A stretch of 64,000 nt of DNA from Convolutriloba macropyga (lineage: Eukaryota). The position numbers were made by a program. The stretch covers positions 12,710,001 through 12,774,000 of the forward strand of contig NC_134477.1 in assembly GCF_964194025.1 (NCBI RefSeq). Direction: 5' to 3'. This document shows, in pieces, positions 15,001 through 23,200 of this stretch (position 1 is its first letter; the number at the start of each line of letters is the position of its first letter).

Positions 15001-18000
15001 GATATCAATACTTTGAAGTTGCCTGGAGAACCATATAGGTTGCTATTAAGTGCAAAATGAGCTTTGATTGTTCATTTTTGCATTTTAGGACCTCGAAATG
15101 ACTTCAAAAACTGTTTATTAACATTTTCCTCTAATCTTTAATCTTCAAATGCAGGAAACAAAATGAACATCTAAACTTCGATTGTAAACATTTTGTTGTG
15201 AACAATGTAAAATATTGGTGACCTTTGACATTTTAATACCCTTGTTTATCGGTTTATGAACCCGAGAGTTAAAACTAACTAAATAATAAACAAGATATCA
15301 CAAGATTAATTATTATTGGTTAGTGGTAGTTATAATTATTATGATCACACTCTGATCAACAATGTTGTAAGGTAATTTAATAATACATCAAATTGCACCA
15401 CAACAAAGGTGTATCAGTAATCACTGGTTATAAAGGTAATTTATTTAATCAAATGTTGGTAATAACTTGGCTAGTTAGTTCAAACTGATATAAACAACAC
15501 CTTTTATAGCAAGCAGGGCAAATTTAGTTAAACACGGTATAAACATAAAGTTTAGTTGCGGGTTCTGTTTAGTATACCATAACAAGTTAACCCTTGTTTG
15601 TTTTAAACAGGTAAACAAAGATATCCGCTAGTTATTACGACATCCAAATAAACAAACAACGCCACCTGGTTGCAATAATAATAAACAAAGATATAACTTA
15701 TCGTCAGATAACTTATTATAAGTTATTTTGTTATAACTTATTGTTGTTCATTGTGCAATCATTTTGTAAATCTTTCAGGCTGTAAAGTGAAGTTTTAAGA
15801 TTTCATTTAATCTGAACTTTGATAGAGAATAACTCGAACGAAGTAATTGCACTTCTATCAGTTTCAATAAATTCTTCAAAATTTATTAACTTATCGTAAA
15901 GAGTAATAATAAGTCGTTATCATATTTCTTAACAAACTGCAAAAATGTCTAACTCAAACAACCAAACCTTTAAAACTAGTTTTTTGTCAAAACCGAACAA
16001 CGAACATTTACTGGAACAGCAAAATAACGAAATAAGTTCGACTTCAAACTCGATCGATTTCTCAAATTTAACTTCAGCGATGTCCGAAATTCTGGCTTCC
16101 TCAAGCGCTGGATCGGTTCCCGATTTGAGCCAGATTAACGCGTCTGTGAACGACCTCCCAGCAATCGTTTTGCAGGAGTTTCAAAAAGGACTTCTTTTTT
16201 CATGGCTTTCAAACGCACATCTAAACAACGGTCTGCAATTGTATAATCTGGCAAAAGCTCTTTCAAACACGAGCCAGCAAACACCTGGTAAAATGCTGGA
16301 GGTGCCCGAAACCCAGCCAAACCCAAAATCTCTGAAAACTGAAACTTATCTGCCGAAAACTGAGGACAAACAACATCGGCAATCATTTTCGGAACCGGAA
16401 GATTACGAAGATTTGGGCTACAGTCGTTCTGGGGAGTTCTCGATGGGGTTCGCACCTGCGATTCCGATTCCCCGCAAAGAGCCCAAATTGGAACCAAATT
16501 TGGGCCGTTCACCCGTTGTTTCGAGTCCACTTGTCGCGACTCATACGAGAGGTATAGCACTTTGAGAAATTTAGTAGAGTGTTATCGTTAGCCCATAATT
16601 ATTTACCAAAAAGTTGTGCAAATTTTGAGCAGAAAAAATTCTAAAGAAATTTGATTTTGTTTGTGCTAGATTACTTTTTTATTTCAATCCCTGTTAAGCC
16701 AAAATGCCAAAATGACTTTTAACTTTATATATAAATTTGTTGGGATCGTAGAAGTTTAGGTCTCCGTTAAAATTTTGATGTCATGTTTTTTAAGAAATTT
16801 TTTTTAGATCTCGGTGAGAAGTTTTATGATGTGGCACCAAGAAGGTACTCGCTTCCCGGTGTGAGCCTAGCGGGTGAAGCTGTGACTCGAACCACTGCCG
16901 GGGACGTCACTCACTTCCTCTCGAGCTCACCCAATTACGTGTGTGTGAACTGCAATACTGAGAAAACTACACTGTGGAGACGAGACATCTCGGTTAGATT
17001 TTTTAAAACAAAATTAATTGAAGAAAAAGTTTTATCCTCAGTAATTCTAGAACTTTTATTGGTCAAAATTTGACAGAATCACTTAATTATTTTGTGAGAT
17101 CTCAAAAAGTCATGTACTATTTCACTGAACAAATCTTATAAAGCGCTTGTCAATCTTACTCTTGTCAAAATGCTCTTATGACCTCTTAAATAGTAAGAGA
17201 ATATTTAAATATTCTTCTGATAAAATCACAAACGAGCCAGATGGCTCAAAATATTTGCAAACTTTGATATTTTTATTGATACATTCAATATTTTATATCC
17301 AATTGCTCAATTTCAATCCTATAAGACTTTATAACACTTACAAGATGAAACATGTTAATTAACGAAAGCTTTCGGAAAATTGTTGACAGTGTTGTTAAAC
17401 ATGAAAGAGCCGTTAATTTTTTAGCAACTACAGTCAATAAAACGGCCTTTACTTGAAGCCCCATAAAAATTATGTTCATTGACGTTTTGCGAGAACAAGA
17501 ACCTCTGATTACATTATAACCCAAATATTTGATATCCTAGACATGTCGATGTAATAGTAGATATTTCGAGGTAAAAGTATTTTAAAAATTGTTATTAATT
17601 ATCTTATAGCTAAGATTGTGATAACCAAAGTGTTAAAATGTAAACAGAGCTGAACAAATAAGCAGAAAATCTTTCCATGCCGTGTCACCCAATGATTAGA
17701 AAGACTTGATAACCTTTTCAGAGTACCAAATTATGAGTGCCATTAGTACTCAAGCGCAACATAATTGTTGACATAGAAAACCAGGTTACGTGTCTCGCAC
17801 TTTCAAATCATAATGGAAGTGATTTAATTTGATTTCATATTTTGAACGGATGAAGTTTATCTCATTAACCAAGGTTGCTTAAATAAAAAGGGGTGCTAGG
17901 AATTACAGCCAAACGGGCTCAGTACCAAATAAAAAAAAACAATCAGAGCCGAATGCTCTAATTTGATTGGCAAATTAATATGATCGGTTTAAACTAAAGT

Positions 18001-20201: not shown

Positions 20202-23200
20202 GAACAACAGCAACAAATAACCCAAACCGTTTCGTGCCCCCGCCCTCTTGCACTTCACCTGTCATCATCGTCATCATCATCATCATCATCACCTGCGCTG
20301 CCTTTATCTACCCGTTCTTCTCCGGAGAGCTCAAAAAATCTGTCTTACTCTTACTAGAAACAGAAGGGATAATAAAACAAAATCATCCATCGTGATCTGT
20401 GATCGTTTTAGTAGCCTGTAAACTGCCAGTTATCATCAACGCCAATTTTTCTCACTCCTTTTTTTGCTGACAGAACCCTGGCCGTTTAATAAAATACCCA
20501 GGCCGAGGCCGGATGTAATCTTGTAATACTATTACAAGACTGATGCTAATCTTGATCCAATTTCGACTCTGGTAGTTTTATCAGTTATACCAAAATCAAA
20601 GCGGTTAAAGTAAGATGAAAAATCTTGATATTCAGTAAGCAGCTAGATGCCTTCACAATATAGGTGCCAATTTTTTTTCAGTCTAGTATTCCAATTTTGA
20701 CGATCAATTAAGTGAGGAAGTTTTTGAAGCCTCTGAATTAATTTATCTTAAGAATTGCATATAGATACGTTAATCGTACCATACCAGCAATGAGCTGCAC
20801 TCTTGCAAACAAACGATATTTTCTGGAAAAAAGTTATCATGAAAAAAAAGATATCATAAAAAAAGATATGAAAATTTGACAGGCTTGAAAAAAATTGCAA
20901 GTAAAACAGCAAATTCAACAGTTTACAGGACGACAATTATAAACAGACCTTTTCATTGTATAGCTTGATTTGTTGTATAGATTTACTGTGTATAGAGATA
21001 GATTTGTAATCAGTAGTCGATTAATCAAGTGATCGTTTTTATACCCCCCCTTCTTCATACCCCTCTCTATCCTCGTATATCAGAGACAAAAGTGACATTA
21101 CAATTATTAAAAAGATAAAATTTGCAGATTCACTGAAGATTACAATTTTTATTAGGCCTTAGATTACTTTATTTTGAGATGTTGGGGGTCACTTTTATCC
21201 TGGAATTCAATCCTGTGGAAATTTTAGTGAAAACTTCAATTGATTTGACTGAAAGGTTTTGGATTATGGTGCTATGTAATAAAATGCTAAAATGATATAA
21301 AAATTTTATAGTTTCTGATAAATATAGTCTTGCAATCGGAAAAATTTCTGCCTAATTTTGTCGTGTAGCTCTCTTCGGTCTCTTGGGTCAATTTAAGTAT
21401 GACCAAAAATTACGAACTCTCAACAGTCGAATTCCAAAGTCCAGACGCCCACTTGCAATATTAAGGCAGAAAACATATCCTCCAAAATTATTGTTAAACT
21501 TGCAATAATAGGAGAGATCGCTGTAGGAATGTAAGATAAATTTAAGATTAAAAAAAATCTTTTTATCCAACTAGATCCACATAGTTGTCTAAGACCTATT
21601 ATGCGTGAAATCTGAGTTAAAAACAATTGATTCAACAGGATGCAGGGAAGTCTAACTTTTTTGAAAAAAAAATTAAACGGAAAGTTTCACAAGGAGGCTC
21701 GCTAATGTGCATTAGCACATACTGTTCCGACACCGCTCATTCATATTTCTGGCCTAAATGTGTACCAGATGAGGAAGAGACAGAGAACTTTTAAAAATTC
21801 AATTAATGCTCAAAAGGTAATTGATGTATAAATAAAAACTTGGCTTTCAACTAAAAAAAACTTAATAACAGAGTCCAAATAGCGTTAAAAAACTAAAGAA
21901 AACATATTATTATATATTGCACAGGAAAAGAAGATTGGATCAGTCCTTCTTGAAACTCGGCAATAAGTAGACAAAAAAGAACAAAGTTTAAAAAAAAATA
22001 CGATTTTTTTAAAACAAACTATTTCAAATAATGAAAGGCATTATATATCAATTGAAACCTTTAAATAGGTTTATGGCCGTTCATAACTTTATATGATAAC
22101 TGTGAGATCTATATTTATCCAGAATGTGTCAGAATATGACGTTCGTCTACAAAAAACAAACTAAAACTAAAGACGAAATACAAAATTTGAAACCAAAATC
22201 GATTCAGTAAAAATGACATATAGCCAATTGCGTCCTCTTTCGACGCAAACCACGTGATATTTGAATTCTGAATAATGAGATTATGTATCAAGAAGACAAA
22301 TGCAACTGAGGATGTCGACGACAGCGCCACAGATTTCAAGTCATGCTTTGATATTTCTCATTACCCTGCAATCTATATCATTCAATTCAACAGATGACCA
22401 GAGCTCACCTTTTTTTGTTCTGAGTTGTAAACGCCAGCCTTCACCCAAACTAGTCAATAAATTAAATGCAGTGCAAATTTGTTGATCGGTACCAGCAAAG
22501 ATGCCGCCATCAAAGTACAAATTACGCTGCACGAGACTTTGTATTATTGTTTCGGTTACTATAATGATCAGCCACAATGCTAGTCAAAACAAAAGCGACT
22601 TCAAAGGATCCCCTTGTTGTACTCCCGATGCCTTAAGCAGCAAACATTGAAATAAGCAGCTGATTCCATAAACTGGTATCTTATTATCGAATGGAAAATC
22701 TTTAAATCAATCTGCAATATTCAGGAATTCTCCAAGTTTTTGAAATTATCAAAGGAAACTTTTGTTGCATGTAGTATGGCCTCAGCACCAGCCCAACTGT
22801 TACTCCCAAATGTTTTGTGTTAAATAGTTCGGCAGCTTCTGAGTTTACTCCAGGAGCTATGCATTTAGCAATAAGACGTCGAATGGCCTCCTCATCACCG
22901 TTGGGACGGACGTCATCTTTCATTTTTTCAAGGCAGTTAACGTTGCAATACAGAGCAAAGGAGCAATGAATTCGGGAAGTTGACCCCTGCTGGCTAAGCT
23001 AAAGGTTTCGTTAAACTAGTGACGCTCGTTTTTTAACTGATCGGTGGCAGCGCAGTTTACCGCTTGCAGCAGCAGCTCAGGACGCCTTTTCGATGGCCCA
23101 GCGCAATAAATTTGGAGAACGACTCAAACTGGGAAAATAGTGATGTCTCGTCAAATGGATACAAATAAGTAATAGAATCTGAATCAAATTAGCGGTCAGG

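What the first reader, a model, noticed from the sequence alone, without database searches (positions are those of the whole stretch)
16808..20357. Single-finger GATA456-like factor with an intron inside the finger
Seen: only the C-type finger (TTLWRR...KLHGVNRP...RKRK) is present. No N-finger is encoded in exons 1-2 or the 256-bp first intron. A 3.07-kb phase-0 intron splits the finger (RRDIS|GKQVC), and polyQ follows the basic tail directly. Known: bilaterian GATA123/456 proteins usually have two fingers, with the C-finger intron after KLH. Single-finger derivatives (nematode END/MED/ELT-7, Drosophila SrpC) act in endoderm specification and lack the FOG-binding N-finger. Inference: an independently derived single-finger endomesoderm GATA. 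ORF-only annotation would miss the domain.
Basis: partly seen in the sequence, partly recalled or inferred. Interest (0 to 1): 0.65.

Follow-up and report, generated by a model that had tools for sequence, protein, structure and literature searches.

The report
Single-finger GATA gene of an acoel worm
This is an intact gene for a GATA-type DNA-binding regulator with one zinc finger instead of the usual two, the finger being split by an intron at an unusual place; the same design occurs in related acoel worms, so it is a lineage trait and not a one-off.

Summary
On the + strand, three exons (15945-16551, 16808-16992, 20061-20357) with GT..AG introns encode one C-X2-C-X17-C-X2-C GATA finger. A 3068-bp phase-0 intron splits it (..RRDIS | GKQVC..). 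A basic tail and a 13Q-E-4Q run follow.

No second finger lies anywhere in the 64 kb.

The only named relative is an NCBI protein of the acoel Symsagittifera roscoffensis, 'putative transcription factor egl-18 isoform X2' (P0005). It also has one finger and is colinear across the junction, 33/34 identical to the finger-and-tail part of exon 3. Two unnamed relatives break off exactly at this intron position.

The intron site differs from the ancestral bilaterian site and from the nematode ELT-2/3 site.

The finger is C-type and lacks the GATA123-specific residues. Positive GATA456 membership is not shown, because outgroup fingers score the same way and an AU test rejects nothing.

A conserved, lineage-restricted N-terminal helix is an extra feature.

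Verdict: a real, probably functional single-finger GATA factor of an acoel; moderately interesting. The joined coding sequence was never assembled or searched.

The parts
15945..16551 (+). Exon 1: ATG plus 202 codons plus 1 nt; N-terminal region without any zinc finger
   Evidence: Sequence and translation. An in-frame stop lies 12 nt upstream of the ATG. It is 98% identical to P0004, a database ORF that equals this exon plus read-through into intron 1.
16155..16247 (+). Conserved N-terminal motif (LPAIVLQEFQKGLLFSWLSNAHLNNGLQLYN), predicted helix
   Evidence: The alignment of five sequences has 22 invariant columns, nearly all of them in this block. AlphaFold2 on the S. roscoffensis relative gives a helix at residues 25-81, with pLDDT 86-89 over residues 31-60. 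No Pfam or PDB match.
16552..16807 (+). Intron 1, 256 bp, GT..AG, phase 1
   Evidence: Read from the sequence. The frame is kept across it. No relative aligns across this junction, so this splice is inferred.
16808..16992 (+). Exon 2: linker plus the first half of the finger (CVNCNTEKTTLWRRDIS, 16942-16992)
   Evidence: Translation. Pfam GATA profile positions 1-15, E 7.6e-05. 21/27 identical to P0005 residues 184-210.
16993..20060 (+). Intron 2, 3068 bp, GT..AG, phase 0, inside the finger; holds a dispersed repeat at 19266-19554
   Evidence: Sequence. Repeat copies at 49206-49489 (minus strand, 79% over 287 bp), 35786-35847, 29743-29913, 49652-49714 and 446-516. No finger-like coding in it.
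20061..20162 (+). Exon 3, first part: second half of the finger plus basic tail ([34 protein letters not shown])
   Evidence: Translation. Pfam GATA profile positions 20-35, E 5.2e-06. 33/34 identical to P0005 residues 213-246. Matches the C-fingers of GATA-1/-3/-4 structures.
20163..20216 (+). Poly-glutamine run (13 Q, E, 4 Q) directly after the basic tail
   Evidence: Translation and codon count.
20217..20357 (+). Ser-rich C-terminal tail and stop codon TAG (20355-20357)
   Evidence: Translation. AATAAA hexamers at 20371-20376 and 20488-20493 were read; their use as polyadenylation signals is inferred.

Best explanation
The locus is an intact, spliced gene for a sequence-specific transcription factor of the GATA family in an acoel worm (Xenacoelomorpha).

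The protein has these parts, in order:
- an N-terminal helix conserved only within this small acoel group,
- a disordered linker,
- one C-type GATA zinc finger with its basic tail,
- a glutamine-rich and serine-rich C-terminus.

Inferred mechanism: the single finger and tail bind WGATAR-type sites as an isolated vertebrate C-finger does. The Q-rich tail and the N-terminal helix would recruit cofactors. No N-finger-dependent functions are available (FOG-type cofactor binding, help on double sites).

Gene structure is derived. The N-finger exon is gone. The ancestral intron in the basic region is gone. A new phase-0 intron sits 24 nt before the end of the finger motif. The two acoel relatives whose entries break off inside the finger stop at this same position, so the new intron predates their divergence.

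Shown here: sequence, frame, splice signals, domain matches, absence of a second finger in 64 kb, conservation in relatives.
Inferred: splicing in vivo, DNA binding, cofactor role of the helix, developmental role.
For: - Exons, frames and GT..AG signals.
- Half-profile Pfam matches that fit together: positions 1-15 and 20-35 of 36.
- Exon 3 aligns to the C-fingers of solved GATA-1, GATA-3 and GATA-4 at 43-45 bits, against 20-24 bits for their N-fingers.
- Profile scores: exon 3 scores 67.4 on the C-finger HMM and 30.5 on the N-finger HMM. The S. roscoffensis finger scores 102.5 and 69.4.
- In a tree of 89 finger rows it sits on the C-finger side of a 100/99 split.
- P0005 (S. roscoffensis, NCBI) has one Pfam GATA stretch at 55.9 bits, cut-off 26.8. 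It is colinear with exon 2 (up to residue 210, then 2 residues) and with exon 3 (from residue 213), without a gap.
- Exon 3 is 33/34 identical in finger and tail, whereas exon 1 is 42/96 identical over its only alignable part. That pattern is what purifying selection on the DNA-binding part would give.
- P0006 and P0007 carry the N-terminal motif and the first finger half. After WRR plus 3 residues they switch to V and unrelated residues up to a stop, as an ORF call running into a GTN donor would (my reading).
- No N-finger in P0005, or in the about 280 residues before the finger of P0006 and P0007.
- None in the window either.
Against: - No transcript data were available, so neither junction is shown to be used.
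- Intron 1 has no cross-species support, because the region is not alignable.
- Each exon alone is below the Pfam gathering score (22.7 and 26.4 against 26.8). The joined finger of the window was deliberately not scored.
- An N-finger exon more than 15.9 kb upstream, outside the window, cannot be excluded from the window alone.
- The AlphaFold2 model is poor overall (mean pLDDT 51.7, pTM 0.22, five-sequence alignment).
- The acoel origin of the window rests on a single named relative.
Confidence: 0.8

Rival explanations
1. The model is incomplete. The gene has an N-finger on a distant upstream exon or on an alternative exon (a Serpent-like NC/C isoform pair), and only the C-only form was seen.
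For: - Drosophila serpent makes one-finger and two-finger isoforms (abstract of PMC8844375, seen in the listing).
- The NCBI relative is labelled 'isoform X2', so other isoforms exist.
- Only 15.9 kb lies upstream of the ATG in the window.
Against: - No finger-like coding anywhere in the 64 kb, on either strand.
- An in-frame stop lies 12 nt before the ATG.
- Any other S. roscoffensis isoform lies in the same 90%-identity cluster as the 281-residue P0005. None appeared as a separate high-scoring entry among proteins of 154-492 residues.
- P0006 and P0007 are open for about 280 residues upstream of the finger without a second finger.
Confidence: 0.07
2. It is a decaying pseudogene or an unspliced relic, and the two finger halves are no longer joined.
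For: No expression data. The intron is large for this locus and carries a repeat insertion.
Against: - All three exons are open and both introns have GT..AG in compatible phase.
- 33/34 identity of finger and tail to a species whose N-terminal region is only 44% identical over its alignable part.
- All four Cys and the 17-residue spacing are intact.
Confidence: 0.03
3. The gene is not a GATA456 member. It descends from GATA123, or from a bilaterian-stem GATA that predates the 123/456 split, and merely keeps ancestral residues.
For: - The tree places it at the base of all animal C-fingers, not inside a GATA456 group, and GATA456 is itself paraphyletic there.
- The AU test does not reject a clade with GATA123 (p 0.286).
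- Fungal fingers (+9.1, +16.4 bits) and N-fingers (+3.9 to +6.9) also score '456 > 123', so the +12.7 bits of the acoel finger is not diagnostic.
- At two columns it carries the commoner GATA123 residue (T at column 42, E at column 46).
Against: - It lacks all three residues that are invariant in the 12 GATA123 C-fingers used (T column 2, N column 52, S column 56). It has G at column 36 and K at column 52, as 54 and 62 of the 63 GATA456 fingers do.
- Its log-odds lies within the cross-validated GATA456 range: +6.5 to +18.3 in 15 of 15, against -10.6 to -20.3 in 12 of 12 GATA123.
- Published work assigns the acoel GATA genes studied so far to gata456 (passages of PMC3566195 and PMC12592216). 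Those trees are in supplements that I could not see.
Confidence: 0.2

Closest known systems
Bilaterian GATA456 factors (vertebrate GATA4/5/6, insect pannier/serpent/GATAe, mollusc GATA4-like)
   Same: - C-type finger with TTLWRR, CNACGLY.KLHG.NRP and a ..RKRK tail.
- Profile log-odds within the GATA456 range.
- Acoel GATA genes in the literature are called gata456. [quoted passage not shown]
   Different: - No N-finger. All 119 other proteins listed have two fingers, but that list favours two-finger proteins because both fingers add to the score.
- No intron at the ancestral ZF2|3'CD boundary.
- A new intron inside the finger.
- A tail ending QQ, not PK.
- Membership is not shown by the tree.
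Nematode single-finger GATA factors (ELT-3, ELT-7, END-1/3, MED; EGL-18/ELT-6)
   Same: One C-type finger and no functional N-finger. Some have an intron within the finger coding sequence. NCBI's label for the S. roscoffensis relative is 'egl-18'.
   Different: - The ELT-2/3/7/END intron lies just before the last 7 nt of the finger motif, described as 1 bp after the third Cys codon. Here it lies 24 nt before the end, in phase 0.
- EGL-18/ELT-6 keep the ancestral intron 24 nt into the basic region. Here that site is inside exon 3.
- The 'egl-18' label is therefore probably a best-hit name and not orthology (inference).
Insect GATAd (GATA456bbb) and Drosophila SrpC isoform
   Same: Loss or omission of the N-finger in a GATA456-type gene. 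GATAd lost the ZF1 exon (passage of PMC2383905). SrpC is a C-finger-only isoform (abstract).
   Different: SrpC arises by alternative splicing of a gene that still has an N-finger exon, and no such exon is in this window. GATAd has fused ZF2 and 3'CD exons, and describes no intron inside the finger.
Solved GATA C-finger/DNA complexes (chicken and mouse GATA-1, human GATA-3 and GATA-4; e.g. 1gat, 3vd6, 4hc7, 2m9w)
   Same: Exon 3 aligns over 34-38 residues at E 1e-10 to 3e-18, covering the second Cys pair, GLY.KLH, NRP and the basic tail. Exon 2 aligns to the first Cys pair and TTLWRR.
   Different: The first half has CVNC and WRRD, which are the usual N-finger letters. It scores about equally on N-finger and C-finger profiles (22.3 against 23.9 bits).

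Membership tests
GATA-type zinc finger proteins (Pfam PF00320) | C-X2-C-X17-C-X2-C spacing | tested here: met
   Exon 2 gives C-X2-C plus 13 residues. Exon 3 gives 4 residues plus C-X2-C. This holds only if 16992 is spliced to 20061.
GATA-type zinc finger proteins (Pfam PF00320) | Profile match at or above Pfam's gathering score (26.8 bits) | tested here: inconclusive
   The exons were scored apart: 22.7 bits (profile positions 1-15) and 26.4 bits (positions 20-35), each below the cut-off. The joined finger was left out on purpose. The colinear relative P0005 scores 55.9 bits.
GATA-type zinc finger proteins (Pfam PF00320) | Basic region directly after the finger | tested here: met
   ..[17 protein letters not shown]. 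It aligns to the tails of GATA-1, GATA-3 and GATA-4.
GATA-type zinc finger proteins (Pfam PF00320) | Binding to WGATAR DNA | not testable with these tools
   Inferred from conservation only.
Bilaterian GATA456 class | Class-specific residues of C-finger and tail | tested here: inconclusive
   Log-odds of +12.7 bits (P0005) and +10.8 bits (exon 3) for 456 over 123, inside the cross-validated range. Outgroup fingers give +3.9 to +16.4 bits too.
Bilaterian GATA456 class | Groups with GATA456 in a phylogeny | tested here: inconclusive
   It is basal among C-fingers and outside the GATA123 clade (98/96). The AU test for a clade with GATA123 gives p 0.286. The alignment has only 56 columns.
Bilaterian GATA456 class | Dual fingers (N and C) | tested here: not met
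   One finger only in the window and in P0005.
Bilaterian GATA456 class | Ancestral exon structure ZF1 | ZF2 | 3'CD (passages of PMC2383905) | tested here: not met
   There is no intron after KLHG, because exon 3 is continuous there. The intron lies inside the finger.
Bilaterian GATA456 class | Endomesodermal or gut expression | not testable with these tools
   Reported for acoel gata456 genes. Orthology of those genes to this locus was not checked, because their sequences and trees are in supplements.
Nematode ELT-2/ELT-3/END/ELT-7 group | Intron just before the last 7 nt of the finger motif | tested here: not met
   Here the intron is 24 nt before the end of the motif, in phase 0.
Nematode EGL-18/ELT-6 group (the name NCBI gives to the relative) | Intron 24 nt into the basic region | tested here: not met
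   Exon 3 runs uninterrupted through that site.
Serpent-type NC/C alternative isoforms | An N-finger exon present in the same gene and skipped in one isoform | tested here: not met
   There is no finger-like coding in intron 1, in intron 2, or in the rest of the 64 kb. An exon beyond the window cannot be excluded.

The most novel reading that the evidence does not exclude
Acoels rebuilt their GATA factor before the sampled lineages split. In this reading they lost the N-finger and both ancestral domain introns, gained a new phase-0 intron inside the remaining finger, and acquired a strongly conserved N-terminal helix (..QEFQ.AL.FSWL.N.HLNNGLQ.Y..). That helix would take over the cofactor-docking role that the N-finger plays elsewhere. 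If Xenacoelomorpha is sister to all other Bilateria, the basal position of this finger could also mean that the gene descends from a GATA that predates the GATA123/456 split.
Probability: 0.25. Interest if true: 0.55.

Novelty: new member of a known kind. Interest (0 to 1): 0.35.

Why it matters
GATA factors are core regulators of gut and mesoderm formation. Intron positions and finger number are used as rare genomic characters to order their duplications.

Acoels sit at a disputed, deep place in the animal tree, and their gata456 genes serve as gut markers in arguments about the origin of the through-gut. If these markers are single-finger proteins with a lineage-specific gene structure and an extra conserved helix, three things follow:
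- There is one more independent case of N-finger loss, beside nematodes and insect GATAd.
- The intron site gives a simple character for sorting acoel GATA paralogues.
- Functional equivalence with two-finger GATA4/5/6 should not be assumed.

The locus also illustrates an annotation point. ORF-style gene calls on such genomes give truncated entries that carry at most a sub-threshold half of the domain: none in P0004, a half-finger below the Pfam cut-off in P0006 and P0007.

Tried and rejected
1. The N-terminal motif as a degenerate, cysteine-less N-finger. hhalign of the motif block against the N-finger and C-finger alignments gave probability about 0.1%. The finger HMM did not hit exon 1 at E up to 100. 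Rejected.
2. A second finger at 63315-63374 (minus strand; E 0.014). It is a 9-residue match in T-rich sequence without the Cys pairs. Rejected.
3. Function of the N-terminal motif from libraries. There is no Pfam family and no PDB sequence match outside the finger. The ESM Atlas feature search on exon 1 residues 60-112 gave a best score of 0.80, which is chance level by the tool's own figures.
4. Resolving the class by tree and AU test came out inconclusive. Profile log-odds looked decisive until the outgroup control showed the bias.
5. Genes on the opposite strand or inside the intron. The shadow ORF 16135-16581 (minus strand) and the intron ORF 17998-18165 have no Pfam match. No tRNA and no Rfam family in the window.
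6. Widening the family. Three further searches returned only P0004-P0007: the exon 1 search, the search with P0005 residues 1-190 and the search with P0007.
8. Fold search and complex prediction were not run. The model was too weak outside the helix and finger, and no binding claim is made.

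
Full report
**What is in the sequence**

The window is AT-rich (29-39% G+C in 2-kb steps) and looks eukaryotic. On the + strand I read and translated three exons one at a time.

- Exon 1 (15945-16551) starts at an ATG that lies 12 nt after an in-frame stop. It encodes 202 codons plus one base.
- Intron 1 (16552-16807, 256 bp) has GT..AG and phase 1.
- Exon 2 (16808-16992) ends ..YVCVNCNTEKTTLWRRDIS.
- Intron 2 (16993-20060, 3068 bp) has GT..AG, a T-rich tract before the acceptor, and phase 0.
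- Exon 3 (20061-20357) reads [34 protein letters not shown], then 13 Q, E, 4 Q, then a Ser-rich tail and the stop TAG.

Counted across the two exons, the Cys pairs are 17 residues apart.

Where a whole protein was needed, the natural S. roscoffensis relative P0005 stood in.

**Is it more than chance?**

Yes, for these reasons.

- Pfam's GATA profile (36 positions) matches exon 2 at positions 1-15 (E 7.6e-05) and exon 3 at positions 20-35 (E 5.2e-06).
- Exon 3 matches the C-fingers of solved GATA-1, GATA-3 and GATA-4 structures (E 3e-18 to 1e-10). Exon 2 matches the first Cys pair and the LWRR element.
- I built a finger HMM from the N-fingers of the hits and ran it over all six frames of the 64 kb. 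Only these two exons scored (E 4e-07 and 4e-06).
- The next hit (E 0.014) is nine residues of T-rich sequence at 63315-63374 on the minus strand, without Cys pairs.
- A regex scan for finger halves found nothing else.

So there is one finger and no N-finger in exons 1-2, in either intron, in the 15.9 kb upstream or in the 43 kb downstream.

**Relatives and the source organism**

A full HMMER scan of 1.84 billion cluster representatives with exon 1 found four proteins.

- P0004 is 98% identical to exon 1. It ends in the four residues (GIAL) that the window gives when exon 1 is read on into intron 1. It looks like an ORF-style call of the same or a very close genome.
- P0005 is named by NCBI 'putative transcription factor egl-18 isoform X2 [Symsagittifera roscoffensis]', an acoel.
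- P0006 and P0007 come from unnamed ENA contigs.

Two further word-index searches, with P0005 residues 1-190 and with P0007, added no new member.

I infer that the window comes from an acoel other than S. roscoffensis. Exon 1 is only 42/96 identical over its alignable part. This inference rests on one named relative.

**Support for the splice junction and the single finger**

P0005 has one GATA stretch (55.9 bits) and one C-X2-C-X17-C-X2-C motif.

- Exon 2 aligns to P0005 residues 184-210 (21/27 identical).
- Exon 3 aligns to residues 213-246 (33/34 identical).
- The two remaining residues of exon 2 fill positions 211-212, so the junction 16992^20061 is colinear without a gap.

P0006 and P0007 carry the N-terminal motif and the first finger half. 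Three residues after WRR they switch to V and unrelated residues up to a stop. This is what a single-exon ORF call gives when it reads a phase-0 GTN donor. I take it as indirect evidence (my inference) that the intron sits at the same place in those two genes. Neither has a second finger in the roughly 280 residues before the finger.

All 119 other proteins listed have two fingers. That list shows only 120 of 1225 hits and favours two-finger proteins, because both fingers add to the score.

**The intron position compared with what is known**

- The ancestral bilaterian and cnidarian domain is encoded by the exons ZF1 | ZF2 | 3'CD (passages of PMC2383905).
- The C-finger intron lies between the 8th and 9th codon after the fourth Cys, that is 24 nt into the basic region (passages of PMC7712238 and of bioRxiv 10.1101/2022.05.20.492891). 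Here that site lies inside exon 3.
- The nematode ELT-2/ELT-3/END/ELT-7 intron lies just before the last 7 nt of the finger motif, or 1 bp after the third Cys codon in the words.
- The intron here lies 24 nt before the end of the motif, in phase 0, which is a different site.
- EGL-18/ELT-6 keep the ancestral site. The 'egl-18' label on P0005 is therefore probably a best-hit name.

The passages I read describe no GATA intron at the site found here. None of my four literature searches listed a paper that describes finger number or intron positions of acoel GATA genes. I saw listings and abstracts for most of those papers, and supplements were closed.

**Finger type and class**

Exon 3 is clearly C-type: 67.4 bits on the C-finger HMM against 30.5 on the N-finger HMM. 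Exon 2 is neutral (23.9 against 22.3), because it combines CVNC and WRRD, the usual N-finger letters, with TTLW, the C-finger letters.

I built a tree from 89 rows of 56 columns. The rows were the N-fingers and C-fingers of 44 proteins that I chose from the 119 hits, plus the P0005 finger; 75 hits were left out. In this tree the acoel finger falls on the C-finger side of a 100/99 split. It lies outside the GATA123 clade (98/96), but at the base of the animal C-fingers next to a fungal protein. The tool warned that there were few columns and that the bootstrap was unsettled.

An AU test does not reject a clade of the acoel finger with GATA123 (p 0.286).

Profiles built from 12 GATA123 and 63 GATA456 C-fingers favour GATA456 by 12.7 bits for P0005 and by 10.8 bits for exon 3. 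The classes were taken from the sources' automatic names.

- Leave-one-out values are -10.6 to -20.3 for 12 of 12 GATA123 fingers.
- They are +6.5 to +18.3 for 15 of 15 GATA456 fingers, sampled from the 63.
- Two fungal fingers (+9.1, +16.4) and four N-fingers (+3.9 to +6.9) are also positive.

The score therefore shows only that the GATA123-specific residues are missing. 'GATA456-like' is fair as a description but is not a demonstrated membership.

**The N-terminal motif**

The five aligned sequences share 22 invariant columns, nearly all within ..I..QEFQ..L.FSWL.N.HLNNGLQ.Y.. (window 16155-16247).

AlphaFold2 on P0005 with this shallow alignment gives a weak model (mean pLDDT 51.7). It does give a helix at residues 25-81, with pLDDT 86-89 over residues 31-60. 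The finger scores 57-71, and most of the rest is below 50.

The motif has no Pfam, PDB or Atlas counterpart. It is not a degenerate N-finger by profile comparison.

**How it most likely works**

- Shown: an open, canonically spliced gene with an intact C-type finger and basic tail, strongly conserved between two acoel species while the rest diverges.
- Inferred from what is established for isolated GATA C-fingers (the solved complexes matched; general knowledge, recalled): the finger and tail bind WGATAR sites on their own.
- Inferred: the Q-rich tail and the conserved helix act in activation or cofactor docking.
- Recalled: the functions tied to the N-finger elsewhere (FOG binding, help on double sites) are unavailable.

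Published acoel gata456 genes were identified in Isodiametra, Convolutriloba and Hofstenia. [quoted passage not shown] Whether this locus is orthologous to any of those genes could not be checked, because the trees and sequences are in supplements.

**Verdict**

The gene is a new lineage's member of a known kind, the single-finger GATA factors, alongside nematodes and insect GATAd. Its intron site is lineage-specific and it has an extra conserved helix. Its relative is already in NCBI's annotation. Interest is moderate, at 0.35.

**What stayed unchecked**

- Transcripts.
- The genomes of the relatives.
- Paper supplements.
- The joined protein of the window.

Noticed in passing
window 26999-28078 (+): A 359-codon open frame rich in Ser, Asn and Lys ends in a CCCH zinc finger (PF00642, 23.3 bits against a cut-off of 20.5). 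The frame stops right after the finger, so it is probably one exon of a CCCH RNA-binding protein gene about 6.6 kb downstream of the GATA gene.
   Followed up: partly
window 19266-19554 (inside intron 2); also 49206-49489 (-), 35786-35847, 29743-29913, 49652-49714, 446-516: A dispersed repeat family. The intron copy is 79% identical over 287 bp to an inverted copy near 49.3 kb, and shorter pieces lie elsewhere. Its nature (SINE-like or MITE-like) was not determined.
   Followed up: partly
window about 41250-41693 and 43243-43686: Translated fragments at these two places gave identical HMM scores at a constant offset of 1993 bp. This suggests a duplicated segment of at least about 450 bp.
   Followed up: no
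window 18040-18130 (inside intron 2): A short G+C-rich island in otherwise AT-rich intron sequence (read). It has no Rfam family, no tRNA and no Pfam match for its ORF.
   Followed up: partly
window 13873-14085 (+): An open frame containing ..YRPISLLS.., which I recall as typical of non-LTR retrotransposon reverse transcriptases. Pfam gave no match at E up to 0.01, so it is at best a decayed fragment.
   Followed up: partly
window 45680-46075 and 47901-48422 (+): Two open frames with charged, heptad-like sequence (many E, K, R, L, Q). They may be exons of a coiled-coil protein gene. No Pfam family at E up to 0.001.
   Followed up: partly
protein P0032 (unnamed jgi contig): A two-finger GATA protein whose C-finger shares CVNC and the tail ..MRKEVIQTRKRK with the acoel finger. 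In the tree it is the next branch after the acoel sequence. Its organism is unknown and I did not look for it.
   Followed up: no
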